Position numbers and translations under genes: made by a program. DNA of 63,771 bases, filler included, from Candidatus Nanoarchaeia archaeon (GTDB taxonomy: Archaea > Nanobdellota > Nanobdellia > Woesearchaeales > DATDTY01): assembly GCA_035290625.1 (NCBI GenBank). It is 4 parts of 4 records of this genome, joined end to end, with 100 filler letters (N's around TTAATTAATTAA, not from the genome) between each part and the next. Parts side by side here need not be neighbours in the genome. Positions count along the whole stretch, not along the records: positions 1 to 31,862 come from DATDTY010000075.1; 3 more parts are not named here. One strand, given 5' to 3'. The notes beneath the pieces are model-generated. The model did no database searches, was not told where the DNA came from, and worked only from the letters and a program-made list of their open reading frames with translations. Below are positions 1-62,603 of this stretch, piece by piece; positions within the stretch are counted from its first letter, which is position 1; every line of letters begins with the position of its first letter.

Positions 1-3
1 TCG

Positions 4-122
4 GGTTGCCGCGAGCTCGGCTCTTGCTGTTTTCAGCTAAGAGCGGCACCTCGCCCGTAAGGGACACCCCCCTCCGCTGCTGATGTCTCGCTTGATTGAG
101 TCTCGCGAAATTGGCGGCAACC
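4..122 (-). repeat. Structured intergenic repeat, copy 1 (GCGG/CCGC subtype)
   Basis: Minus strand reads GGTTGCCGCC-aattt-CGCGAGACT...AGCGGAGGGGGG..CCCTTACGGGCGAGGTGCCGCT...AGCCGAGC-TCGCGGCAACC; closely resembles the copies at 33014, 34167 and 60702. Confidence 0.85.
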
Positions 123-160
123 TCCATTCAGGACAGAGCCCGTCATTGGCTCTCAAGAAA

Positions 161-278
161 GGTTGCCGCCTTTTTTGTGAGGCTTTGAAGCAAGACATTA
201 ACACCGACAAGGGGGTCGTCCCATCGGAGGATATGTCGGTTCACAGCAGAAACAGCGCAGCCGAACCCGGCGGCAACC
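161..278 (+). repeat. Structured intergenic repeat, copy 2
   Basis: GGTTGCCGCC/GGCGGCAACC closing stem; GT-GA-GGCT/AGCC-GA-AC; ACCGACA/TGTCGGT. Confidence 0.9.
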
Positions 279-419
279 CGGGCGAGCCATCACCAAAATC
301 CTAACAAGTTGGTAACAAGCTTGCTTAACACGCCCTTGCCAGTTTGGCCATGGCTCCAGTTTCTGCTCAGCCAACAGCTTCCCGCAAGCCTTAAAAAGCT
401 CCGCCGCCTCTCGCAGAGT

Positions 420-7306: not shown

Positions 7307-7472
7307 GGCTCCATCCAAAAAATGAAGGTTGCCATCAATTTGCGAGGCTCTGAACTCAGATCAGTACACCGACAAAGGGGAGGCTCCATCCGGGAAATGT
7401 CGGTTGTCTCCCTTAATTGCGCAGCCGACCTGGATGGCAACCCGACTGAAAGGAGGTTTTTTGGATGGAGCC
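7307..7472 (+). repeat. Structured intergenic repeat, copy 3 (outer GGCTCCATCCAAAAAA inverted repeat)
   Basis: 16-bp outer IR; GGTTGCCATC/GATGGCAACC; GA-GGCT/AGCC-GA; ACCGACA/TGTCGGT. Confidence 0.9.
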
Positions 7473-8295: not shown

Positions 8296-8515
8296 GGTGC
8301 CATTGAAAAGTCATGCAATGCCCTTTGTGAGCCTTCTATTCAAAACACAGAACAGCGACAAAGGGGGTGCTCAACCAAAACGCCTTCTGGCGGTTTGGTG
8401 TGCCAAAAGAGCATGGCTCTTTTTAGCACCATACGGGAAATGTCGCTTCCCATGAAGCTATGAAGGAGGCGAACCTGGCATTGCCGAACGAAGTGAGCAA
8501 CTTTTCAATGCCACC
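8296..8515 (+). repeat. Structured intergenic repeat, copy 4 (CATTGAAAAG subtype with central insert)
   Basis: CATTGAAAAGT/ACTTTTCAATG outer IR; GCAATGCC/GGCATTGC; GT-GA-GCCT/AGGC-GA-AC; AGCGACA/TGTCGCT; core near-identical to the 14953 copy. Confidence 0.92.
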
Positions 8516-12081: not shown

Positions 12082-12157
12082 GACGACCACCTCCCCGGCT
12101 GCCTAAACCCTGCAGATTATATAAAGCTTGCGAATCTCAGCTGCGGTGAAAATCAGT

Positions 12158-12230
12158 GCTGCCGCCTCTTTGCGAGGCTCTTCTCATCACAATGCGCAGC
12201 GACAAGGGGGATGCCGCAGTAAAAACGTCG
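12158..12230 (+). repeat. Structured intergenic repeat, copy 5 (left half only, degenerate)
   Basis: GCTGCCGCC-tcttt-GCGAGGCT...AGCGACAAGGGGG; right half not recognisable. Confidence 0.7.
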
Positions 12231-12538
12231 TCGTCTGGCATTTTGGTGTGCCAAAGTGATGCAGAATTTGCGTATAGTCCAAGATGATGGCACCATCTCT
12301 ATCCACCTTCCACCTCCCCCAAAAAATAACTACTCAACAATAAACACTATAACTTGAAAACACCAACCATCGTCACCTTTTCTGAGTACTACCATTTTAC
12401 ACACCATTACCACCGTTCATTACAAAAATCTCTCCCAGTATACGAAATCGTAACATTTAAATACTAGCGTCACTACAAATCCAAGCTATTGTCCAATTAA
12501 AAAAGAGCCTCAGATGAGGTAAAAAAGCAGGTGATACC

Positions 12539-14939: not shown

Positions 14940-14952
14940 TCAATCTTCAGCC

Positions 14953-15214
14953 GGCGGCATTGAAAAGATATGCAATGCCCTTTGTGAGCCTTCTATTCAA
15001 AACACAGAACAGCGACAAAGGGGGTGCTCAACCAAAACGCCTTCTGGCGGTTTGGTGTGCCAAAAGAGCATGGCTCTTTTTAGCACCATACGGGAAATGT
15101 CGCTTCCCCTGAGAATACACAGGAGGCGAACTGCTCCGAAGGAGCGACCAAAAATGCGAAGCATTTTTGAGTATCGGCATTGCCGAACGAAGTGAGAAGC
15201 TTTTCAATGCCGCC
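14953..15214 (+). repeat. Structured intergenic repeat, copy 6 (longest, all optional modules)
   Basis: GGCGGCATTGAAAAG/CTTTTCAATGCCGCC; core plus GCTCC-GAA-GGAGC, AAAAATGC-GAA-GCATTTTT and CGAAC-GAA-GTGAG. Confidence 0.93.
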
Positions 15215-15283
15215 TTTCATCCGGTCGTTAGCAGATACTTTCATCCAAAAGATTAATAAAGGTGTACTAAGAATACCCCCTCT

Positions 15284-17512: not shown

Positions 17513-17676
17513 GGTCGCATTGAAAAGTGATGCAATGCCTTCTTGTGAGCCTCTGAAATAAAAGAGAGATCAGCGACACAGGGGATGCTCCACACGGGAA
17601 ATGTCGCTTACCACATCTATAAGCGCGAGGCGAACTTGGCATTGCCGAACGAAGTGAGCAACTTTTCAATGCGACC
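17513..17676 (+). repeat. Structured intergenic repeat, copy 7
   Basis: GGTCGCATTGAAAAGT/ACTTTTCAATGCGACC; GT-GA-GCCT/AGGC-GA-AC; AGCGACA/TGTCGCT. Confidence 0.92.
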
Positions 17677-30818: not shown

Positions 30819-30965
30819 GGGCTCCATCCAAAAAATGAAGGTTGCCATCATTTTTGAGAGACTCTGCGCAAGTATCGGTGCAGCTGGCAGGAGGACGTCC
30901 CTATGGAGGATGCCAGCATGATGCGTTAGAATGCGCAGGCGAGCCGATGTGCTCCGCAGGAGCAT
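30819..30965 (+). repeat. Structured intergenic repeat, copy 8 (right end lost)
   Basis: GGGCTCCATCCAAAAAATGAAGGTTGCCATC as in copy 3; central stem GCTGGCA/TGCCAGC; GCTCC-GCA-GGAGC. Confidence 0.85.
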
Positions 30966-31156
30966 AGGACTTCGGGTTAAACACCCGAGGCCCTTTTTAT
31001 CATATACACTTCATTTTGGCTGCCTTCCGAAGTGCGCTTCATGAGAAAGAGATAATCTCAAAAGTATTTATAGAAAGTAGACCGAAGAGGGGCACAGACT
31101 AATATTAAGATTAGCTCGGAAGTAATTTATTTACTTTCAAATACATAAAAAATAAA

Positions 31157-32960: not shown

Positions 32961-33013
32961 ATCTGCCGCCAATAGGGCAATCCTTTGCGCGAAAACACCG
33001 TCTCTAAACTCCA

Positions 33014-33135
33014 AGGCTGCCGCCAATTTCGCGAGGCTCGATCAGGAAAGAAACTCGGAAGCGGAGGGAGTTGCCCCCTACGGGCGAGGTGCCGCTCTGC
33101 GCTGAAAACAGAAAGAGCCGAGCCGGCGGCAGCCT
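33014..33135 (+). repeat. Structured intergenic repeat, copy 9
   Basis: AGGCTGCCGCC/GGCGGCAGCCT; GC-GA-GGCTC/GAGCC-GA-GC; AGCGG/CCGCT. Confidence 0.9.
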
Positions 33136-33179
33136 GAGAAAGCACATTGGGCTCTCGAGCAAATCAATATCTTTTTATT

Positions 33180-33803
33180 ATGCCAGAGGTTACCATTCCT
33201 ATGCTTAAAAAAATACAGGGCATGTTGCATGCAAAGGAAGGCATTGATGAAGTGAAGCAGGAACTTGCATCTGTAAAGGGCAACTTCGGGAAGGATGTTG
33301 AGGAGATGAAGCTGCGTTTGTCTGAGCTGTCTGCTGCATGGGAGGCTGCATACAAGGCGCAGCAGGGGCATACTGATACCTCAATGAAGGCGCAGCAGGA
33401 GCTTATTGATGGTTTGAAGAGCGTCAGGGAGCTGAATGAATTGTTTGAAAGCGAGCTGAATGATCTGAGGATGGTGAAAAGCAGAATGCACAAGGCTTTG
33501 CTTGAGGACCTTAAGGAAGAGTTCAGGGAGGAGATTGCTGCTGTAAAGGCATCGCTTGTGATGGAAGCAGGATCATTGCATCAGCTCAGGGATGAAGTGC
33601 TCTCAATGGCTGGCCAGATCAGGATGATCAAGCCTGAACTTGCAAAGTTTACAGAACTCTCGCAGCATATCAAGAAGGCTGATTTTGACTTGAATAAATA
33701 CGCTCTTCGCCTGGACGAGGCAAACCGGGACAAGCTTGAGCTTCTGCGGAAGATTGATACTCTCCAGAAGCTTATATCCAAAGAGCGGCGCCTCAGGCCC
33801 TAG
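33180..33803 (+). CDS. Coiled-coil protein
   Basis: Heptad pattern throughout. Confidence 0.75.
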   Translation: MPEVTIPMLKKIQGMLHAKEGIDEVKQELASVKGNFGKDVEEMKLRLSELSAAWEAAYKAQQGHTDTSMKAQQELIDGLKSVRELNELFESELNDLRMVKSRMHKALLEDLKEEFREEIAAVKASLVMEAGSLHQLRDEVLSMAGQIRMIKPELAKFTELSQHIKKADFDLNKYALRLDEANRDKLELLRKIDTLQKLISKERRLRP

Positions 33804-33909
33804 CCCATCTTCTGGCTATTTCTGCCGCGATATTGGCCTTGATATGCGTGTTCGCCAGCAGCTTATTGATTATGCTATGAATGGTGGTAACTTTCTCCTT
33901 TGCCTCCAT
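33793..33909 (-). CDS. Candidate 38-aa small protein
   Basis: MEAKEKVTTIHSIINKLLANTHIKANIAAEIARRWARA; TTTATATA box and GGGGTGA SD. Confidence 0.5.
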   Translation of the reverse strand: MEAKEKVTTIHSIINKLLANTHIKANIAAEIARRWARA

Positions 33910-33969
33910 TCTCTCACCCCCTTGAAAAATCCAAGGCAATCAAAGTATATAAAGTTTACGAAACTGGAT

Positions 33970-34161
33970 CTGGTGAAAGTCGATGTTGCCGCCCCATGTG
34001 AGCCCTTTTAGTGAAAACAACGCAGCGACAAGGGAGTCGCCCCCTGCGGGGAATGTCGATAACCACGCAAGCAGTGCGAGGCGAACTGCTCCGAAGGAGC
34101 GACCAAAAATGCGAAGCATTTTTGAGTACTGGCGGCAACAGCGGAGCGTGACTTTCACTGG
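33970..34161 (+). repeat. Structured intergenic repeat, copy 10
   Basis: GTGAAAGTC/GACTTTCAC; TGTTGCCGCC/GGCGGCAACA; CGACA/TGTCG; both GAA hairpin modules. Confidence 0.9.
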
Positions 34162-34166
34162 AGCAG

Positions 34167-34298
34167 TTCAAAGGTTGCCGCCATTTTTTGCGAGGCTCAA
34201 TCAGGAAAGAAACTCGGAAGCGGAGGGAGCCGCCCTCTACGAGCGAGGTGCCGCTCTTCGCTGAAGACAGAAAGAGCTGAGCTGGCGGCAACCTTGAA
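34167..34298 (+). repeat. Structured intergenic repeat, copy 11 (tandem with copy 10)
   Basis: AAGGTTGCCGCC/GGCGGCAACCTT; close to copy 9. Confidence 0.9.
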
Positions 34299-34357
34299 AA
34301 GAGGGTTAGTGGAGCCGAAACCGTCTTCTTAGGTTCCTTGAGAACTTAGGATCACGT

Positions 34358-39431: not shown

Positions 39432-39592
39432 GGGCTTTTTGCAGGGGCTTATCAGGGATGCCGCCGAGTTCGCTTCCAGTTTCCTTTGTTCATATCGACA
39501 TTCCCCGGGTTGGACGACCCCCTTGTCGATGTGCTTCTTTTTGGCTGCAAAGCTCACAAAAAAGGCGGCACCCTTCCCCCTGCAAAAAGCCC
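39432..39592 (-). repeat. Structured intergenic repeat, copy 12
   Basis: GGGCTTTTTGCAGGGG outer IR; minus strand GT-GA-GCTT/AAGC-GA-AC and ATCGACA/TGTCGAT. Confidence 0.9.
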
Positions 39593-42458: not shown

Positions 42459-42603
42459 GGTGGCATTGAAAAGTCATGCAATGCCCTTTGTGAGCCTTCT
42501 ATTCAAAGTACAGAACAGCGACAAAGGGGTTGCTCCATACGGGAAATGTCGCTTCCCATGAGAGTATGCACAAGGCGAAGTCGGCATTGCCGAACGAAGT
42601 GAG
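42459..42603 (+). repeat. Structured intergenic repeat, copy 13 (ends at contig break)
   Basis: Close to copy 4 but without the central insert. Confidence 0.92.
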
Positions 42604-43091: not shown

Positions 43092-46000
43092 ATGAGACAG
43101 AATGTTTTCAAAACTCTAGTATCTATTATTTCTATGATAGCAATCCTATCATTCTCTGCTTCTGCATGGACTGTCCAATTGTCTTCTCCGCAGAATGGAA
43201 CGAATGTGAGTAATAACAATGTTTTATTCACGTTTAATACAAGCACTGATGCTCCTGATACCCTGAACTTCACCCTCATGGCCAACTTTACAGGAGTATG
43301 GCTCGGGAACAATACAAATTTCACAAATATTGCTTTTCCGGTCGGAAGCACGAGAAGTATAGGCGTAATGATTCCTGATGGTAATTATATATGGAACATC
43401 AATGCTACAAATTTTTCCGATGCGATAGATTACAATTTCTCAGCTGGGAATTTTTCCTTTGCTATGGATAACAGACCTCCAAGTGTATCCTTCCTTGACC
43501 CTCTCAGCCTCGCAAATGTAAGCAGAACAATCAACCTCACCATCGCAGGAACTGATCCAACAACAGGCATCCAATCCCTTCGGGTTCAAAACGGAACAAA
43601 TGGAAACTGGATCCCTCTTTCTTTATCGGCAGGAACAAAAAATGATGGAAACTGGTCAGTTCTGTTCGACACAGCGTCGGTAGCTGATGGGTCATTGAAT
43701 CTTAGGCTAAATGCAACGGATTACGCTGGAAACAGCAATAGCTCTGAGGCCATAACAATAACCATAGACAACACCCATCCAAAAATATTCAAGTACAATG
43801 GAAACGTTGTTAGTAACGCAATTGTCAAAGGGAATATAAGCCTCAACGTAACAGCGAATGATACTTTAACAGGAATCCAGAAATTGAATTTCACCATAAC
43901 TGACAACTCAGGAGAGAGACTGCTCCTTGCAGAAAGGCGCAATGATTTCTGGAATGCGTCAATAGACGCAACAACACTCACTGATGGTGTGCATAATGTA
44001 ACAGCGCAAGCGTATGATCATGCAGGGAATGGGCCGCTCAATCGTGTGGTTATCAGCGAAGTGGCTTTCAATGGACTAGGTTCTGATTCAGCGCTTGGAA
44101 ATGAGTGGATTGAGCTCTACAATCCAACAAGCCAGCCGGTCACCCTTTCAAATTGGACGATTGATCCTCAGGCAGCAGGTTCAACAAATTTCGATATAGC
44201 GAACGCAGTAATCCCCCCTTACTCTGCCATGACCTTCTCAGAAAATACAACATGGTTTACTGCAAATTTTGGGTTCCCGCCTGATAATAGTGATGACGGG
44301 TTTGGAACATTAAGGGACGCAGGAGATACTATCTATCTGAAAAATGCAAGCGGAGGCATAGTTGACAGTGTAGTGTATGGGGATGCCTCCATAACTGGCG
44401 TCACAGCAAATGACGGGGAAACAATCATCCGAAACCCAGTCAGCGGAGACACAGACTCAGAGTCAGACTGGTCCTCAAACAACACAGCAACACCCGGCCA
44501 GGCAGCAAATCCAAGCCATATCACAGTTACAGTTGATAACACGCCTCCAAAGGTAGCAGCATTTAACGGCGCTGTGATCAATAACGCCGACCTTCGATCA
44601 GGAACCTACACCATCAACGCAACCGTAACTGATGCAACAACAGCAGCAAACGCAGTCTACTTTGCAATAATGAATTCAAGCGGAAGCCAATTCCAGACCA
44701 TAACAGCATCAAATGAGGCAGGAAGTTTCTGGAATGCGTCATTTGACACTACAACACTGGCAGATGGAACCTACAACATAACCGCCTACGCCAATGACAG
44801 TCTTGGCAACCTCAACAACACCGAAAGAATAACAGTCGATATTGACAGCACTCCTCCTTCACTCTCTGTTGTAACGCCTCTCAACAATTCTTTCCTTATG
44901 AGTACAACCCCAGAGATAGGATTTAATATAACTGATTCGCTAAGCGGGGTTAACACATCCTCAATTTCATTCAAATATAGGTTCTCCCTGCTTCCACCGC
45001 AGTTTGACATAAGCAATGTTGCCATAACTCCTATTCCAAATGGATTCTATGTCAATGGGACAATAACGGACTTCGGAAGCCAAGGCGTCATCAACATAAC
45101 CGTCAATGCAAAGGATAATGCAACCAACGCAATCCAGCAATTCTCATGGTCATTCACAATATCATTTAATGCTCCCTCAATCCCTTCAGTAACAATAAAC
45201 GACACAGACAATCTCGTTAGGTCATCAGACACGCTCAACATAACCCTGAATGTATCAAGCGAATTTGCACCAATTGCAGCTGTAAACATAAGCAACGCAA
45301 CTGCAATCCAGTTAACCAACATATCCACAGGCATCTGGGCAGCTAATTTCACGCCAAACAATCTCAGCTGCTCGGCAGACGGAGCATGCGCAGTCCACAT
45401 AACAGTGATAGACGCAGCTGGAAACATAAACAGCTCTGAGTCATTCAGCCTTACCATAGACAACACGCTGCCTTCTGTAACAAACCTCCTAATCTCCGAC
45501 ATTGACAACATCACAAGAAGCCAGGACGTCGTAACCTTCAACGTCACAGTTACAGACGCCCATTTCAGCTCAGGAAAAGTCACCTTAGGAAATGCATCCT
45601 TGCTAACCCTTAGGAACAATACACCAACAGTATGGAATATTACAACTCCAGTAAGTTCCTTTGACTGCACCCAGACAGACGGGCCATGCATCCTGACCCT
45701 TGCCGTAGAGGACGACGCAGGAAACATCAACAGATCAGAAAGAATAGCATGGCAAATAGATGATGCCGCTCCAAGAGTCTTCAACATCACAACAAACGAT
45801 TCTAACAATATTGTGAAAAGCACTGAAACGATAAACATATCAGTAAATATTACAGACACAAATGCAATAACAAACGTATCTCTCAATGGAACGCTCCTGT
45901 CAAAATCAGGAAATCGTTTTTCAACTGTAAACTCAACATCCCAATTCTGCCCTGGAGTGACCAATGGCTTCTGCCAGCTCACCTTTAATGCAACTGATAT

Positions 46001-49000
46001 TGCAGGCAATCTCAACAGCTCAGAAACTCTCACATTTATCGTTGACGAGACATCCCCCTCAGTAGCAGCCTTGAGCACCTCTGATTCTGACAACATTGTT
46101 GCTCCAACTACTGTCATCACTCTAACCGCAAACGTCTCTGATAGTAACGGGATTGCATCAGTCTTCTTCAATGACACAATCCCCATGCTTCCTGCATCAG
46201 GCAATCTTTACACTCTCCAGAACACGACATCATATTTCTGCCCTGGCATTAGCGATGGAGCATGCAAGCTGAACTTCACCGCAATTGACTATGCAGGAAA
46301 CAGGAACAGCACACAAACACTCACATTAACCGTCGATAATAGCGCCCCGGCCTCTCCAAACTTCACCCAGACACCTTCAATCGTCACTAACTCTGATAAT
46401 GTAACCCTCAACATCACCTGGACTGATGTAAATGGCATTGCTTCAGTATTGATAGAGCACAATGCAACAGGAAACTTCACAAACGCAACTGTGACAAATG
46501 TCTCTAATGTCTACTCTGCAACAATCCCCTCTTCGCTTATTGATAACCATGAAACGATTGCATGGAGATCAACAGCAAGAGACAATGCAGGAACAACAAC
46601 AACCACTTCTCTCATGTTCTTCACAGTAACCAACAGAGCTCCAAACTCAAGCTCTATCCTCCCCATCGCCTGGCAGGAAGAGACAACCACGAGCATTAAC
46701 CTCTCCATCTACTTTGCTGATTCAGATGGTGACTCCCTGATATTTAGCATAACCAATCCGCCTGAAAGAATTAATGCAGCAATCAATGGGCAGATTGTAA
46801 CCCTCACAGCGCCTTCGAACTTCTTTGGGCTTGATTACATCGTCTTTAATGCAACAGACAGCTTCCTGTCCAACCTATCCAATAATGTGACTTTGAATGT
46901 TACAGATATCAATGATGCTCCTGTTGTCTCAGCAGTATCCGATATCGCGCTCCAGGAAGACACCTCAAACACAACCCTGAACCTCAGCAGCCTTGTAAAT
47001 GACTCAGACACTCCAAAATCCAGCATCACCTGGTCCGCAACCATCATCAACAATCCAAACATCTCAGTCCTGATTAATCAAAGCACAAAGATTGCAAATA
47101 TCTCCTCTTCAAACAACTTCACTGGCACAGCAAAGCTCTTCTTCACTGCGAATGATGGGGCTGCCTCAGCAGACACCAACCTTATCACAGTCAATGTAAC
47201 GCCAATTAACGATCCTCCAACAGCCACTCTCTTGCTCAGCCCCGGCCTCAATGCCCTTGTCGGGCCAAACGTCAGCCTGACTTGGTCTCCAGCAAGCGAT
47301 ATTGATGGTGTTGTCTCATACCTCGTCGTCCTAAACGCATATCCCAATCCAAATACTACTGCAGCCCAGACGACATCGGCAGCAGCTGACATCACCAGCC
47401 TTGCTGACCAAACCTATTATTGGAGAGTCATTTCAACAGATGGAAGCCTCAATACCACGTCTGAAACACGGAATTTCACAGTCAGGCTCAATACTCCTCC
47501 AAATATCACCTCAGTCTATCCATCAACAAATCCAACGATAGCAGAAAACCAGACTCAGCGTTTCAACGCTTCCTTCAATGATAGGGAAAATAATATCATG
47601 ACTGCAAACTGGTTTGTGGACAACGTGATCCAATCTGCAGGAGCAAGCTCAGACCTTCAGCTTAACCACAGCTTCTTCAATTACGTTCCTGCATTCAATG
47701 AATCCGGCCAGCGCACCGTCAGGTTTACGGTGATAGACCAGTTTAGCCAGACAACAAACTACACATGGACCATCACAGTCTCAAACTCCAATAGAGCTCC
47801 TCTCTTCACCCACAGCCTTTCCGGCCCTGACGCAAGGGAAGACCTTCCTTACATCTTTGATATCAACTGCACAGATCCTGACAATGATTCAGTAACCTTT
47901 GCAACCACTGCGCCAGGATTCAGCATCTCCGGCGGTAACCTCACATTCATCCCAGGAAATAACAATGTTGGAACTGCTTCTGCCAACATCACCTGCTCTG
48001 ATGGAAGCCTTTCAACCCTGGGCACAGTCTCCTTCCTTGTCATCAACACCAATGATGCGCCGAACATCACGTCATTCTCGCCATCAGCCCAGAAGATCAT
48101 CCTCAACACGCTCCAATCCCAGGCATTCAGCATAACAAGCATAGACAGCGACGTCGGGGATACTGCAGGCCTTGCAACAACATGGCTTGTCAACAATGCA
48201 ACACAAGGAACCGGCTCAACCTTCAGCTTTGGCCCAACAAGCCTGGCAGGAGATTATTCCATCACAGCAAGAGTAAGGGATAACTCAAATGCAGAAGCCT
48301 CACGCGGTTGGAACCTTACTGTAAGCGTTGTTCCAAGATCAGAGAATATCAGTGGAAGCATCTTAAACCTCACTCCCCAGCAAGCCCAGGCAGCAGCCAA
48401 TATCACCATTGAAAAGCCATCTCAGGGCACTATTGATTTCAGGAACAACATCCTAAACCTCACAAATCTTGCAGCTCTTGATGAGGTCGTTAAGATCGAG
48501 CCCGGGATTATTGCCATTGACACAGACCGGGCCCCGCAACTGAACAGATCAGCCCATATCATCATGCGGGGCTTAAGCTTCACATCAACTCCAGCCATCT
48601 ACTATAACAGAGGCTTCAACCTCGGCCTCAATGACTCAAACACCCAGCGCTGCCCTGACAGCCTTTGCTCCAACATAACCTATCAGGCAGGGACACTTGA
48701 GTTTGATGTAGCGCATTTCACCACATTTTTGACAGGAAGCGAGGATCAGCCTCCTCAATTCACCACCTCTCCTCCAACCACCGCAATCATCAATACAACC
48801 GTAGTCTATGATGCAAACGCTGCCGATCCGGAAAATGCTGCAGTAGCCTACCAGCTGCTCCAGGCTCCTGAAGGGATGTCCCTCAATAATGCAACAGGCT
48901 TGATCACATGGAATGCAGCAAGCCTTGGCAGGTTCGATGTTGTCCTTCAGGCATCTGACGGATCACTCGCATCAACCCAAAGCTTTACCATACGGGTCAG

Positions 49001-50060
49001 GACTTCAACAAATCTCCTGATAAGCAACGTGGATGCAAAGGTGGACAGCAAGAGAAGCAGCAACCTGGCAGATGGAGACAGTATCAGGAGAGACGCAGAG
49101 CCTGAGTCCAAAGTAAAATTCGAGATTGAGCTTGAGAACACAGGAAACACAGAGATGCAGGACGCAGCAGCAACCATAATCCTTGAAGGCATCGATGATG
49201 GAGATGATGATGAGGAAGACACAGATTCCTTTAACCTCCAGCCAGGCAGGAAGAGGAGCGAGAGCGTTTCCTTTACCATTCCGCTTGTCGTTGATGAAGA
49301 CACCTACAGGGTTATCATCCGGGCAGAGGGCACAGAGGCGAATGGCACTCTTGCAGAAGACGAGATAGAACTTTTCCTTGACGTCAACAAGAACAAGCAT
49401 TCCCTCCAGATCAGGAATGCTGAAGCAAACCCCAATCCAGCAATCTGCGAGAAGGATGTTGAGCTCAGATTCCAGGTCATGAACCTTGGAGAGGATGATG
49501 AAGACGAGGTGAGCATTAAGGCAAGCAGCCCAGGCCTTGGATTCTTAAGGACTGAAACAGACATCTCGCTGGATGCAAACCAGGATGAGGAGAGCAGGCT
49601 CAACAGGGCCTATACCATCCCAGTCCAGGATATAGCGCCAGGATCCTATCCTATAACGATTACAAGCTTCTATGACAGCAAAGAGGAGTCCCAAAAAACC
49701 GTCCAGCTGGAGAAGGTAGAATGCGAATTCGAGCCGCTTCCAGTGAGGCCTAGCCAGCAGAGGCTTGAGCCTGTCCAGGTGATACGGACAACCACAGGCC
49801 TCCCTCCTTTGCAGACCCTGCCGGCAGCCCAGAGGCTGCAGCCAGCGGCGCAGACTAAAGCCCAGGCTCCTACAACGCAACAGCCAGGGGCCCAGCCTTC
49901 CCAGGAAAAGCCTTCAATTACAACAGTCCCGCAGCCTATCCAGGTAGATGGTTCACTGATACTAACCTTTATGATTATTGGCTTGATCGTCCTTGGAGGC
50001 CTTGCGATTTACGGTATAGGCTATCTGATTATCAAAGCTCCAAGAAGGCCGCTGTACTGA
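43092..50060 (+). CDS. Giant cell-surface glycoprotein (Ig-like repeats, lamin-tail domain, C-terminal anchor)
   Basis: Signal peptide; repeated DxAGN/DNTxP Ig units; VVISEV..EWIELYN; dense N-x-S/T; P/Q linker and terminal TM. Confidence 0.92.
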   Translation: MRQNVFKTLVSIISMIAILSFSASAWTVQLSSPQNGTNVSNNNVLFTFNTSTDAPDTLNFTLMANFTGVWLGNNTNFTNIAFPVGSTRSIGVMIPDGNYIWNINATNFSDAIDYNFSAGNFSFAMDNRPPSVSFLDPLSLANVSRTINLTIAGTDPTTGIQSLRVQNGTNGNWIPLSLSAGTKNDGNWSVLFDTASVADGSLNLRLNATDYAGNSNSSEAITITIDNTHPKIFKYNGNVVSNAIVKGNISLNVTANDTLTGIQKLNFTITDNSGERLLLAERRNDFWNASIDATTLTDGVHNVTAQAYDHAGNGPLNRVVISEVAFNGLGSDSALGNEWIELYNPTSQPVTLSNWTIDPQAAGSTNFDIANAVIPPYSAMTFSENTTWFTANFGFPPDNSDDGFGTLRDAGDTIYLKNASGGIVDSVVYGDASITGVTANDGETIIRNPVSGDTDSESDWSSNNTATPGQAANPSHITVTVDNTPPKVAAFNGAVINNADLRSGTYTINATVTDATTAANAVYFAIMNSSGSQFQTITASNEAGSFWNASFDTTTLADGTYNITAYANDSLGNLNNTERITVDIDSTPPSLSVVTPLNNSFLMSTTPEIGFNITDSLSGVNTSSISFKYRFSLLPPQFDISNVAITPIPNGFYVNGTITDFGSQGVINITVNAKDNATNAIQQFSWSFTISFNAPSIPSVTINDTDNLVRSSDTLNITLNVSSEFAPIAAVNISNATAIQLTNISTGIWAANFTPNNLSCSADGACAVHITVIDAAGNINSSESFSLTIDNTLPSVTNLLISDIDNITRSQDVVTFNVTVTDAHFSSGKVTLGNASLLTLRNNTPTVWNITTPVSSFDCTQTDGPCILTLAVEDDAGNINRSERIAWQIDDAAPRVFNITTNDSNNIVKSTETINISVNITDTNAITNVSLNGTLLSKSGNRFSTVNSTSQFCPGVTNGFCQLTFNATDIAGNLNSSETLTFIVDETSPSVAALSTSDSDNIVAPTTVITLTANVSDSNGIASVFFNDTIPMLPASGNLYTLQNTTSYFCPGISDGACKLNFTAIDYAGNRNSTQTLTLTVDNSAPASPNFTQTPSIVTNSDNVTLNITWTDVNGIASVLIEHNATGNFTNATVTNVSNVYSATIPSSLIDNHETIAWRSTARDNAGTTTTTSLMFFTVTNRAPNSSSILPIAWQEETTTSINLSIYFADSDGDSLIFSITNPPERINAAINGQIVTLTAPSNFFGLDYIVFNATDSFLSNLSNNVTLNVTDINDAPVVSAVSDIALQEDTSNTTLNLSSLVNDSDTPKSSITWSATIINNPNISVLINQSTKIANISSSNNFTGTAKLFFTANDGAASADTNLITVNVTPINDPPTATLLLSPGLNALVGPNVSLTWSPASDIDGVVSYLVVLNAYPNPNTTAAQTTSAAADITSLADQTYYWRVISTDGSLNTTSETRNFTVRLNTPPNITSVYPSTNPTIAENQTQRFNASFNDRENNIMTANWFVDNVIQSAGASSDLQLNHSFFNYVPAFNESGQRTVRFTVIDQFSQTTNYTWTITVSNSNRAPLFTHSLSGPDAREDLPYIFDINCTDPDNDSVTFATTAPGFSISGGNLTFIPGNNNVGTASANITCSDGSLSTLGTVSFLVINTNDAPNITSFSPSAQKIILNTLQSQAFSITSIDSDVGDTAGLATTWLVNNATQGTGSTFSFGPTSLAGDYSITARVRDNSNAEASRGWNLTVSVVPRSENISGSILNLTPQQAQAAANITIEKPSQGTIDFRNNILNLTNLAALDEVVKIEPGIIAIDTDRAPQLNRSAHIIMRGLSFTSTPAIYYNRGFNLGLNDSNTQRCPDSLCSNITYQAGTLEFDVAHFTTFLTGSEDQPPQFTTSPPTTAIINTTVVYDANAADPENAAVAYQLLQAPEGMSLNNATGLITWNAASLGRFDVVLQASDGSLASTQSFTIRVRTSTNLLISNVDAKVDSKRSSNLADGDSIRRDAEPESKVKFEIELENTGNTEMQDAAATIILEGIDDGDDDEEDTDSFNLQPGRKRSESVSFTIPLVVDEDTYRVIIRAEGTEANGTLAEDEIELFLDVNKNKHSLQIRNAEANPNPAICEKDVELRFQVMNLGEDDEDEVSIKASSPGLGFLRTETDISLDANQDEESRLNRAYTIPVQDIAPGSYPITITSFYDSKEESQKTVQLEKVECEFEPLPVRPSQQRLEPVQVIRTTTGLPPLQTLPAAQRLQPAAQTKAQAPTTQQPGAQPSQEKPSITTVPQPIQVDGSLILTFMIIGLIVLGGLAIYGIGYLIIKAPRRPLY

Positions 50061-55417: not shown

Positions 55418-55497
55418 GCGTCAGGAGAGATAACCCCTCATTTATAAATGTTGTGAGGGCGTAAGTTCGCAGCAGATACCCCCTATGCTATAGGTAT

Positions 55498-55630
55498 AAT
55501 GTGCATTGGCTGGGCCCTTTGCGAGCCGGTTAAAGATAGATCATAGCAGCGACAAGAGGGTTGGCACCTTCGGAGAATGTCGCTACCCGTTCTAATAGCG
55601 CTCGGCGAGCCTGGCCTGCCAATGCACATT
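55498..55630 (+). repeat. Structured intergenic repeat, copy 14
   Basis: AATGTGCATTGGC/GCCAATGCACATT; GC-GA-GCCG/CGGC-GA-GC; AGCGACA/TGTCGCT. Confidence 0.88.
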
Positions 55631-55633
55631 CTC

Positions 55634-55813
55634 AGGTTGCCGCCGTGCTCAAAAATGCCCTGCATTTTTGGTCGCTCCTTCGGAGCAGCTCGGCTCTTTC
55701 TGTCTTTAGCGAAGAGCGGTCCAACCAAAACGCCCGAAGGTGTTTTGATTGGACCAACCCCTCCCGCTGTGGTTCCTTTACACTATTGAGCCTCGCGAAA
55801 ATGGCGGCAACCT
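55634..55813 (-). repeat. Structured intergenic repeat, copy 15 (tail-to-tail with copy 14)
   Basis: AGGTTGCCGCC/GGCGGCAACCT; AGCGG/CCGCT; central insert and GCTCC-GAA-GGAGC module. Confidence 0.88.
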
Positions 55814-58937: not shown

Positions 58938-59143
58938 AGCTCCATCCAAAAACCTCCTTTCAGTCGGGCTGCCAATGAAAATACTCAGGTATTTTCAAGC
59001 GCTCCTTCGGAGCGCATCGGCTCGCCTGAGCTTTCCAAGGTGCAAAGCTGGCATCCCCGTAGGGACCCCCCCCTGTCAGCTGCTCAGGGATTTGCAAAGA
59101 GGCTCGCAAAAATGATGGCAGCCTTCATTTTTTGGATGGAGCT
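58938..59143 (-). repeat. Structured intergenic repeat, copy 16
   Basis: AGCTCCATCCAAAAA outer IR as in copy 3; GC-GA-GCCT/AGGC-GA-GC; GCTGACA/TGCCAGC. Confidence 0.9.
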
Positions 59144-60670: not shown

Positions 60671-60701
60671 AGTGTCTCCATACAATGCTCTGCCCCGATT
60701 G

Positions 60702-60823
60702 AAGGCTGCCGCCTCTTTCGCGAGGCTCAGCAACCAAATATCAGCACAAGCGGAGGGGGTTGCCCCCTACGGGGCGGTGCCGCTCTTTGCTGAAACCAGC
60801 AAGAGCCGAGCCGGCGGCAACCC
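60702..60823 (+). repeat. Structured intergenic repeat, copy 17
   Basis: GGCTGCCGCC/GGCGGCAACC; GC-GA-GGCT/AGCC-GA-GC; AGCGG/CCGCT. Confidence 0.9.
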
Positions 60824-60920
60824 GAACCAAGCAAGATTTTGGACAGAGCCTCTGGACAGAGCCTCTCCGCGAAGCAAATTTATAAACCTTTTTAAAGGAG
60901 CAAGTGATTCTGCTGCGTAT

Positions 60921-62407: not shown

Positions 62408-62603
62408 GGCTTCCCTGAAAATGTAGTTGCCGTCAATCTGCGAGGCTCTGAACTCAAATCAGTACCCCGACAAGGGGGTTGTCCCATACGGGGAATGTCT
62501 GTCATCCCTATCACTTTCGCAGCCGAGCCGACGTGCTCCGAAGGAGCGCCCGGAAATGTTTGGCATTTCCGATGGCAACCTTGAAAAGATTTTCACCGGA
62601 GCC
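62408..62603 (+). repeat. Structured intergenic repeat, copy 18
   Basis: GTTGCCGTC/GATGGCAAC; GC-GA-GGCT/AGCC-GA-GC; GACA/TGTC; GCTCC-GAA-GGAGC. Confidence 0.88.

What the first reader, a model, noticed from the sequence alone, without database searches (positions are those of the whole stretch)
14953..15214. Motifs suggest the element folds as single-stranded DNA, not RNA
Seen: accessory hairpins close with 3-nt GNA loops on the element strand: GCTCC-GAA-GGAGC (copies 6, 10, 15, 16, 18), GCTCC-GCA-GGAGC (copy 8), AAAAATGC-GAA-GCATTTTT (6, 10) and C-GA-AC-GAA-GT-GA-G (4, 6, 7, 13). The conserved tandem G-A mismatches mostly sit in a YGAR context. Established: d(GCGAAGC)-type GNA triloops and YGAR sheared pairs are exceptionally stable in DNA and less so in RNA. 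Inference: a strand-specific ssDNA substrate comparable to REP/IS200-IS605 ends, attC sites or single-strand origins. Caveat: some central loops (TACG, TTCG) could be read as RNA UNCG tetraloops.
Basis: partly seen in the sequence, partly recalled or inferred. Interest (0 to 1): 0.8.

Follow-up and report, generated by a model that had tools for sequence, protein, structure and literature searches.

The report
Archaeal mini-transposon folding as single-stranded DNA
This repeat is a tiny non-coding jumping element of small uncultured archaea, likely moved by an ordinary IS5-type transposase, whose conserved interior carries DNA-type folding signatures, including co-varying three-base contacts, so it likely folds as single-stranded DNA rather than RNA and may help the element copy itself during replication.

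Summary
The motifs are real and lie on the element strand. The element is a 160-260 nt miniature transposon (MITE) with about 140 copies in this Woesearchaeales genome and hits in 47 of 150 genomes of the order. It has 14-bp inverted ends and 8/9-bp target duplications, and its ends match 0.9-kb IS5-family elements.

The 'DNA, not RNA' reading holds on sequence evidence:
- Inner helices covary heavily yet hold 1.2% G·T, against 7.3% G·U in tRNAs.
- Side hairpins close with GNA/GNNA loops, almost never UNCG.
- Two central positions covary three ways (G·C·G to A·T·A; 81/21 and 88/16 of 106), the signature of a purine-motif triplex.
- Orientation ignores local genes and promoters but runs in 100-260 kb blocks.

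Against it: a conserved TNCG central loop, unresolved polarity relative to the fork, no RNA data, no bench test, and no matching transposase in this assembly. Verdict: a new variant of a known kind, with an unusual, probably DNA-level tertiary fold.

The parts
14953..15214 (+). Full MITE copy (262 nt) carrying both optional hairpin cassettes
   Evidence: CM hit 14953-15214; TIR/TSD parse; fold z -7.5 as DNA, -6.6 as RNA
14945..14952 (+). Left 8-bp target duplication (6 of 8 match to the right copy)
15215..15222 (+). Right 8-bp target duplication
14953..14967 (+). 5' terminal inverted repeat (P1 left arm); across the family this end resembles the right end of IS5-family elements
15200..15214 (+). 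3' terminal inverted repeat (P1 right arm); across the family this end resembles the IS left end
14972..14979 (+). P2 helix 5' strand (pairs with 15176-15183)
   Evidence: covariation
14984..14991 (+). P3 5' strand with tandem G·A in YGAR context (GA at 14986-14987 opposite GA at 15128-15129; partner strand 15124-15131)
   Evidence: replaced by Watson-Crick AA/TT in one group of copies
14992..15011 (+). 5' variable strand, about 19 nt, not complementary to the 3' variable strand (about 15105-15123)
   Evidence: lengths 17-21 and 17-22 nt; longest complementary run 3.56 against 3.58 for shuffled partners
15012..15018 (+). P4 helix 5' strand (pairs with 15098-15104)
15020..15095 (+). Central domain: predicted purine-motif triples A15020·T15029·A15095, G15021·C15030·G15094, G15022·C15087·G15093; central loop 15088-15092
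   Evidence: three-way covariation; assignment in this copy read
15031..15086 (+). Optional two-hairpin cassette (about 56 nt) inserted in the central domain
   Evidence: copies with and without it
15133..15169 (+). Optional cassette of two GAA-triloop hairpins
15184..15196 (+). Side hairpin with tandem G·A and GAA triloop between P2 and P1
1..301 (.). Head-to-head pair of copies (1-140 minus, cut by the contig end; 148-301 plus)
7307..7472 (+). Family copy
8296..8515 (+). Family copy with central cassette
12139..12320 (+). Truncated copy (weak hit)
17513..17676 (+). Simple copy with a perfect 8-bp duplication
30820..30984 (+). Degenerate copy with a GCA-triloop hairpin (weak hit)
33007..34316 (+). 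Three copies (33007-33153, 33991-34089, 34165-34316)
39433..39591 (-). Family copy
42476..42603 (+). Copy cut by a contig end
55495..55801 (.). Tail-to-tail pair (55495-55633 plus; 55686-55801 minus)
59015..59117 (-). Family copy (core)
60686..60850 (+). Family copy
62408..62570 (+). Family copy with GAA-triloop cassette

Best explanation
It is a non-autonomous miniature transposon with IS5-type ends and 8/9-bp target duplications, likely moved in trans by an IS5-family DDE transposase, and its conserved interior likely folds as single-stranded DNA, a fold that would favour its own copying at the replication fork. SHOWN: the ends, the duplications, insertion 13-18 nt upstream of an outward-facing TATA-like box, covarying helices, three-way covarying central positions and long-range orientation blocks. 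INFERRED from these: the folding molecule is the element strand as DNA. It forms a rod of four near-pure Watson-Crick helices with a sheared GA tandem, an open bubble of two ~19-nt strands, and a G*G·C / A*A·T triple core; extra cassettes are tolerated when they fold on themselves. MORE SPECULATIVE (about 35%): the fold forms when the fork exposes that strand, pairs the two ends and pauses synthesis or binds a replisome or transposase factor. Transposition then happens at the fork with net copy gain. That would account for about 140 core-bearing copies against 2 full copies of the plain deletion derivative of the resident IS5.
For: MOBILITY. 86 of 139 hits have strict 14-bp TIRs. 8-bp duplications (at most 1 mismatch) occur in 15 of 20 copies of one subfamily and 9-bp ones in 16 of the other 66; the shuffled-flank control is about 0. 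MITE ends match at 12 or more of 14 positions to ends of 0.9-1.0 kb IS5-family elements in 25 of 86 and 41 of 80 copies, against under 0.1% shuffled. One of those transposases passes the NF033579 cut-off. FOLD. 34 of 39 pairs show double changes; 90% of cells pair, against 70% shuffled and 40% or less when slid. DNA RATHER THAN RNA. Inner helices hold 28 G·T in 2,282 pairs (1.2%; A·C 24) against 47 in 644 (7.3%) for 30 tRNAs; a second copy-rich genome has 2 in 1,104 in P2-P3. GNA triloops run 60:8 and 29:8 by strand; UNCG makes up 0 of 77 and 1 of 83 side tetraloops. GNA triloops are the specially stable DNA loops and the RNA tetraloop counterpart melts far lower (PMC13037366, passages). Triples are G·C·G 81, A·T·A 21, other 4 and G·C·G 88, A·T·A 16, other 2 in 106 copies from other genomes, and 84/16 and 99/8 of 123 here. 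Purine-motif triplexes are stated not to form in RNA (PMC4666352, passages). NOT TRANSCRIPT-LINKED. Strand versus local genes is 71:67. The adjacent TATA points away and is on the left in 24, the right in 23 and both in 5 of 86. An internal TATA-like site appears 6 times in 86 copies. REPLICATION-SCALE. Neighbouring copies share strand 59:29 here and 55:29 in G336, where one 260-kb stretch is 27:4. Here 64 of 90 lie on the C-rich strand (contig-flip p=0.0009).
Against: The central loop letters T-N-C-G are almost invariant. That is an RNA UNCG-like signature, although covariation fixes a register in which they are not a canonical cUNCGg loop; their reverse complement is a GNA on the other strand. 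Short G·G-C triples exist in RNA catalytic triplexes, and the literature on purine-motif RNA triplexes is mixed (PMC7583470, passages). The same triples read as pyrimidine-motif on the opposite strand. Most G336 copies have other central domains, so this triple core is not universal. GNA bias by distinct contexts is not significant in this genome alone (12:5). Fork polarity conflicts. The element strand is C-rich here (64:26) and in pooled relatives (32:15), near even in G101 (9:7), and weakly G-rich in G336. The r-protein operon is on the element strand in G101 but opposite in G000. Orientation bias can also come from clamp-bound transposases without ssDNA (PMC3971601, passages). No transposase with matching ends was found in this assembly. 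The core is absent from 30 IS5 loci apart from one weak hit. IS5 co-occurrence is weak: 19 of 46 element-positive against 35 of 103 negative genomes (my count). No clean empty site was seen.
Confidence: 0.6

Rival explanations
1. The fold acts as RNA: the MITE is transcribed (read-through or from an unseen promoter) and the rod, UNCG-like loop and triples form an RNA module that helps the element or the host.
For: Near-invariant TNCG central loop. RNA fold z -6.6. MITE transcripts are generally described as stable stem-loops (PMC10969869, passages). Short purine triples occur in RNA (PMC7583470).
Against: 1.2% G·T with no excess over A·C despite heavy compensatory change. GNA triloops on side hairpins and almost no UNCG. 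No sense bias; G336 even leans antisense, 30:17. Promoters point away on either side. No Rfam match at gathering score in the window or in 6 loci.
Confidence: 0.15
2. The pairing is a by-product: template switching between inverted arms keeps perfecting the helices, and the conserved letters are duplex binding sites for the transposase or a host protein, so no functional single-strand fold exists.
For: Very pure Watson-Crick helices are what template switching produces (PMC8604942 and PMC3820800, starts of abstracts in a listing). TIR left-right covariation is already explained by different IS partners. The two strands fold about equally in nearest-neighbour models.
Against: It does not explain mirror-type three-way covariation, which changes at least 18 and 10 times on a rough tree. 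Nor does it explain the retained non-Watson-Crick tandem GA, the fixed-length unpaired strands that are never corrected, or strand-specific loops.
Confidence: 0.15
3. The core is a host-useful ssDNA signal (primase loading, SSB exclusion or fork control) spread by MITE shells and kept by host selection rather than for its own copying.
For: DNA mini-hairpins occur at phage and plasmid priming sites and resist SSB (PMC13037366). The core travels with many different end types. Orientation blocks are replichore-sized.
Against: The element was found in only 47 of 150 genomes of the order, at 1 to over 100 copies, and not in the 7 closed or nearly closed genomes checked individually. There is no conserved gene neighbourhood.
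Confidence: 0.07
4. It is an HUH (REP/RAYT, IS200/IS605) or integron attC-type single-strand recombination substrate.
For: Strand-specific DNA-type hairpins. The genome holds Y1 transposases.
Against: 8/9-bp duplications and IS5-type ends. The one Y1 locus read has its own unrelated hairpin ends. No integron integrase passes cut-off in 8 genomes. attC-type end motifs occur in 1 and 0 of 86 copies.
Confidence: 0.03

Closest known systems
MITEs derived from IS5-family insertion sequences (NF033579 transposases; assignment to the IS903 group is recalled and taken from earlier findings)
   Same: Non-coding, about 14-bp TIRs starting GG, 9-bp (one subfamily 8-bp) duplications, ends matching 0.9-kb elements in the same order, same insertion site upstream of TATA boxes.
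   Different: The interior does not match the IS loci examined. It is conserved across 46 other families of the order as a covarying fold with base triples, and it is carried by many different end types.
IS6/IS26-family ends
   Same: 14-bp TIR consensus agreeing at 11 of 14 positions with the published bacterial consensus; 8-bp duplication (PMC6807381 and PMC7986276, passages).
   Different: The Woesearchaeales IS6-like elements whose ends I could read have other ends; IS5 elements match better.
E. coli BoxC / PIT / TM-ECO intrastrand triplex repeat
   Same: A dispersed intergenic repeat with a G-rich purine-motif intrastrand DNA triplex and no link to gene orientation (PMC4666352, passages).
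   Different: BoxC has 9-nt stems in Y-R-R order. Here there are 3 triples in R-Y-R order with a crossing linker, inside a TIR/TSD-bounded rod, and supported by natural covariation.
REP/REPIN-RAYT, IS200/IS605 ends, attC sites
   Same: Strand-specific DNA hairpin features and an orientation bias along the chromosome.
   Different: Those are HUH or tyrosine-recombinase substrates without target duplications (established knowledge). This element has DDE-type ends and duplications.
Candidate MITEs catalogued in a Woesearchaea genome (PMC11602168)
   Same: Reported density of 105 per Mb (passage), close to the roughly 100 per Mb here; it may be the same family.
   Different: The passages seen describe no fold, triples or strand bias; the supplement could not be read.

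Membership tests
MITE of IS5-family type | Short, non-coding, multi-copy, terminal inverted repeats | tested here: met
   139 hits, 86 with strict TIRs, lengths 148-298 nt
MITE of IS5-family type | Fixed-length target duplication | tested here: met
   8 bp in 17 and 9 bp in 16 of 86 at 1 mismatch or fewer; control about 0
MITE of IS5-family type | Ends match an autonomous IS of the family | tested here: met
MITE of IS5-family type | Matching transposase present in the same genome | tested here: inconclusive
   The resident IS5 (G000 C49) has different ends; the assembly is in 84 contigs
MITE of IS5-family type | Mobilised in trans by that transposase | not testable with these tools
   needs an assay
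REP/RAYT or IS200/IS605 end | No target duplication; HUH Y1 transposase linked to the hairpins | tested here: not met
   duplications present; the Y1 locus read has unrelated ends
REP/RAYT or IS200/IS605 end | Active strand on the lagging-strand template | tested here: inconclusive
   bias real, polarity conflicting
Integron attC site | RYYYAAC...GTTRRRY ends, cassette co-orientation, IntI | tested here: not met
Single-strand origin / ssi | Primase- or RNAP-dependent priming on the folded strand | not testable with these tools
   needs biochemistry
Purine-motif intrastrand DNA triplex | Mirror purine tracts with G*G·C and A*A·T triads | tested here: met
   three-way covariation; only 3 triads, shorter than the 6-15 of the published search
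Purine-motif intrastrand DNA triplex | Physical formation (N7 protection, Mg2+ dependence) | not testable with these tools
   bench only
Known structured RNA (Rfam) | Match at gathering score | tested here: not met
   0 in the window; only sub-threshold matches in 6 loci
K-turn / L7Ae site | Obligate tandem G·A next to a 3-nt bulge | tested here: not met
   the GA tandem is flanked by pairs on both sides and replaced by AA/TT in one group of copies

The most novel reading that the evidence does not exclude
A naturally evolved, tertiary-folded single-stranded DNA module, with a triplex core fixed by covariation. It acts as a replication-coupled transposition enhancer and has hitch-hiked on many different IS5 end pairs across an archaeal order: a selfish DNA aptamer, where genomes so far offer mainly hairpin-level ssDNA signals.
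Probability: 0.3. Interest if true: 0.85.

Novelty: new variant of a known kind. Interest (0 to 1): 0.6.

Why it matters
Whether intrastrand DNA triplexes and mini-hairpins have selected roles in cells is an open question; the E. coli triplex repeat had no effect found in vivo (PMC4666352, passage). Here natural covariation across many archaeal families predicts specific triple swaps and rescues, so the question becomes directly testable with short oligonucleotides. It would also show that a classical duplex DDE system can gain a single-strand structural enhancer. If the fold is only a by-product, the element is an ordinary MITE.

Tried and rejected
Expression: no RNA holder listed among 20 runs; this is no evidence either way.

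Empty sites: one low-depth contig in one of 4 runs joins 14940 to 15234 with 7 other letters, which is not a clean empty site; no such joint at a second copy in 4 runs.

Mobilising partners that do not fit:
- IS1595: 0 of 34 genomes.
- IS256: 0 of 5.
- Cas1: 1 of 5.
- Reverse transcriptase: 8 of 16 copy-rich against 2 of 18 element-free genomes, but missing in several copy-rich ones.
- IS6-like: 64 of 401, with different ends where readable.
- IS1634-like and an rve-domain IS here have unrelated ends.
- Integron integrase: 0 of 8 over cut-off.

Other dead ends:
- No recurrent neighbouring gene.
- No long element with matching TIR and duplication in G000.
- A metagenome scan with one IS5 protein gave 7 distant loci that I did not analyse.
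- No match in viral contigs.
- Folding energies do not separate DNA from RNA or strand from strand.
- No closed genome with the element was found (G016, G025, G022, G162, G326, G224, G096, G097), so the closed-genome skew test could not be run.
- An origin-motif scan was uninformative.
- The variable strands do not pair with each other.
- My HMM found only 12 of the G336 copies, so the covariance-model set of 88 was used.
- The TIR script covered 29 of 31 IS5 loci.

Full report
SETTING. The window is four contigs of one 1.37-Mb archaeal assembly (G000, 84 contigs) joined by N linkers. Its genes are archaeal: thermosome, type II methionine aminopeptidase. A pattern scan for the element's centre gave 123 loci. 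Their titles read Woesearchaeota, Nanoarchaeota/Nanoarchaeia, 'archaeon' or 'uncultured Methanosarcinales'; two of the last kind are genomes of G000's own order by identical coordinates. I therefore call the host Woesearchaeales (inference).

OBSERVATION. Genome-wide the three modules lie on the element strand 29:1, 11:0 and 39:0. In 86 full copies GNA triloops outnumber their reverse complement 60:8 among 152 triloop hairpins; in 106 copies from other genomes the figure is 29:8 among 105. By distinct contexts the counts are 12:5 (p=0.14) and 15:3 (p=0.008).

WHAT IT IS. An iterated profile gives 139 hits in G000; some at contig ends may be one copy counted twice. 86 have 14-bp inverted ends, GG...CC. 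One subfamily is flanked by 8-bp duplications (15 of 20), the rest by 9-bp ones (16 of 66); shuffled flank pairs give about none. The copy in the finding has 6 of 8 matching. The model finds the element in 47 of 150 genomes of the order, in 46 families besides its own (the tally includes one unpublished genome), and over 100 copies in two of them. I first suspected IS6 partners, because the end consensus agrees at 11 of 14 positions with the published IS6/IS26 consensus (PMC6807381, passages). The local IS6-like elements have other ends where readable. Earlier findings of this scan pointed to IS5, and I tested it. NF033579 matches 137 of 401 genomes of the order, 28 over cut-off (includes two unpublished genomes). 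Five 0.9-kb elements among the 29 loci examined have ends of the MITE type, three of them with a 9-bp duplication, and one transposase passes the cut-off. MITE ends match an IS end at 12 or more of 14 positions in 25 of 86 and 41 of 80 copies, against under 0.1% for shuffled ends. The MITE 3' end often carries the IS left-end signature (27 of 86, 37 of 80). The interior does not match these IS loci. The resident IS5 of G000 has different ends, and its plain 219-bp derivative has 2 full copies. Both MITEs and autonomous elements sit just upstream of an outward-facing TATA-like box: 52 of 86 MITEs against 7.4% background per side, 45 of 88 in G336, and most of the 9 IS elements inspected by eye. 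Docking is therefore likely a property of the transposase, not of the fold.

THE FOLD. On 39 aligned copies, 34 of 39 pairs show double changes; 90% of cells pair, against 70% shuffled and 35-40% when slid. From the outside in, the order is the TIR helix, P2, two pairs, a tandem G·A in YGAR context, P3, two unpaired strands of about 19 nt that do not pair with each other, P4 and a 20-nt central domain, with a side hairpin 3' of P2. In one group of copies the GA tandem is replaced by AA/TT pairs, so it behaves as a helix continuation, not a K-turn. The optional cassettes I read are self-folding hairpins.

DNA OR RNA. (1) The inner helices of copies from other genomes hold 28 G·T in 2,282 pairs (1.2%) with 24 A·C; 30 tRNAs from G000 and relatives hold 47 G·U in 644 (7.3%). 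P2 alone, which the search pattern did not constrain, holds 9 in 704. G336 repeats this with 2 in 1,104 for P2-P3, though P4 there has 13 in 559. The TIR helix has 4.0%. (2) Side loops are GNA or GNNA; UNCG makes up 0 of 77 and 1 of 83 tetraloops, GNRA 9 and 4. GNA triloops are the specially stable DNA loops and r(GCGAAAGC) melts much lower than its DNA form (PMC13037366, passages). (3) Central positions 1/10/20 and 2/11/19 change together. In 106 copies from other genomes the counts are G·C·G 81, A·T·A 21, other 4 and G·C·G 88, A·T·A 16, other 2; 77 of these came from a pattern that left the three letters free to vary independently within purines or pyrimidines. In G000 the counts are 84/16/23 and 99/8/16 of 123 parsed copies (16 unparsed). 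Positions 10-12 pair with 18-20, and 1-3 mirror 18-20: the G*G·C / A*A·T pattern of an antiparallel purine-motif triplex. PMC4666352 (passages) states such triplexes cannot form in RNA; PMC7583470 (passages) lists evidence both ways and shows short G·G-C triples in splicing RNAs. A G336 subfamily with different letters again has mirror purine tracts around a pyrimidine run, but most G336 copies use another short centre. (4) Copies are indifferent to transcription: 71:67 against local gene strand, 33:31 between co-directional genes, promoter left 24 and right 23. T-N-C-G is nearly invariant in the central loop. The covarying pairs, however, close a 5-nt loop whose first base is T 65, C 31, A 8, and shifting to the cUNCGg register breaks the A·T·A variants.

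ORIENTATION. Neighbouring copies share strand 59:29. 64 of 90 lie on the C-rich strand by gene-corrected third-position skew (contig-flip p=0.0009), similarly in young and old copies. In G336, 88 copies on 800 kb form blocks (27:4 over 260 kb, 7:0, 12:5, one switch). Polarity is unresolved. Pooled relatives lean C-rich, 32 of 47 scorable loci out of 93. G101 is 9:7. G336 leans G-rich and gene-rich in segments that I chose from the element runs. In G000 the C-rich strand is also gene-rich, 431:348, but the r-protein operon (recognised by eye from translations) lies on the G-rich strand, whereas in G101 it shares the element strand. A closed relative without the element suggests G/T-rich equals leading if its origin is near cdc6. 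IS orientation bias can also arise through sliding-clamp binding (PMC3971601, passages), so this line argues against a transcript role more than it argues for ssDNA.

MECHANISM. Shown: DDE-type ends and duplications, promoter-edge insertion, covarying helices and triples, orientation blocks. Inferred: IS5-family transposases act in trans, and the fold is formed by the element strand as DNA. Speculative: folding at the fork pairs the ends and pauses synthesis or recruits a factor, biasing transposition towards copy gain. Mini-hairpins are reported to pause polymerase in some sequencing reactions and purine triplexes to block it in vitro. Rivals are an RNA-level role, template-switch by-product, and a host-selected signal.

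NOVELTY. Searches returned no description of this fold. A MITE census reports a Woesearchaea genome at 105 candidates per Mb (PMC11602168, passage); its supplement could not be read and may list this family. PMC13343696 and PMC10969869 (passages) did not mention it in the passages seen. The element is a known kind, a MITE, with an apparently undescribed and probably DNA-level tertiary fold. Interest 0.6.

Noticed in passing
window 15215-15253: The right-hand 8-mer of the duplication occurs again 24 nt downstream, 14 nt before a TATA-like run, which is the family's usual docking geometry. One low-depth contig lacks the element and the first 8-mer. This may be the scar of successive insertions at one promoter.
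   Followed up: partly
G000 C49:19040-20006; C30:15139-15357; C15:2072-2290: An apparently multi-copy IS5-family element (its ends recur at five contig breaks) with its own plain 219-bp MITE that lacks the structured core.
   Followed up: partly
L318, L320, L324, L328 (left ends): These IS5 elements carry a hairpin just inside the left end that overlaps a G-rich run upstream of the transposase start; possibly translational control.
   Followed up: no
G000 C49:1-912; L276, L286: IS6-like elements of about 0.9 kb with GG-starting 12-14 bp ends; two of them have 9-bp duplications.
   Followed up: partly
G000 C68:38030-38677 (L264): Reverse transcriptase in a 375-aa frame, a size compatible with diversity-generating retroelements (recalled; not tested).
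   Followed up: no
G000 C49:16170, C46:22216, C18:70; C61:271-1821; C24:15819: IS200-type Y1 transposases (the C46 one has its own hairpin ends), an IS1634-like transposase (family label recalled) and an rve-domain element.
   Followed up: partly
G336 C9 ~160-193 kb; G000 C51 ~31-41 kb: Element orientation switches from plus to minus. A Xer-like recombinase gene lies near the first switch and a second cdc6 paralogue near the other; either could mark a terminus or origin.
   Followed up: no
G016 C1 (20 sampled stretches): This single-contig genome is A-rich at third positions on the plus strand in all 20 samples, with no switch, unlike a bidirectionally replicated circle.
   Followed up: no
window 43092-50060: A 2,322-aa ORF with internal ~290-bp repeats, possibly a surface protein.
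   Followed up: no
window 1-301 and 55495-55801: Pairs of copies in opposite orientation, abutting each other.
   Followed up: no
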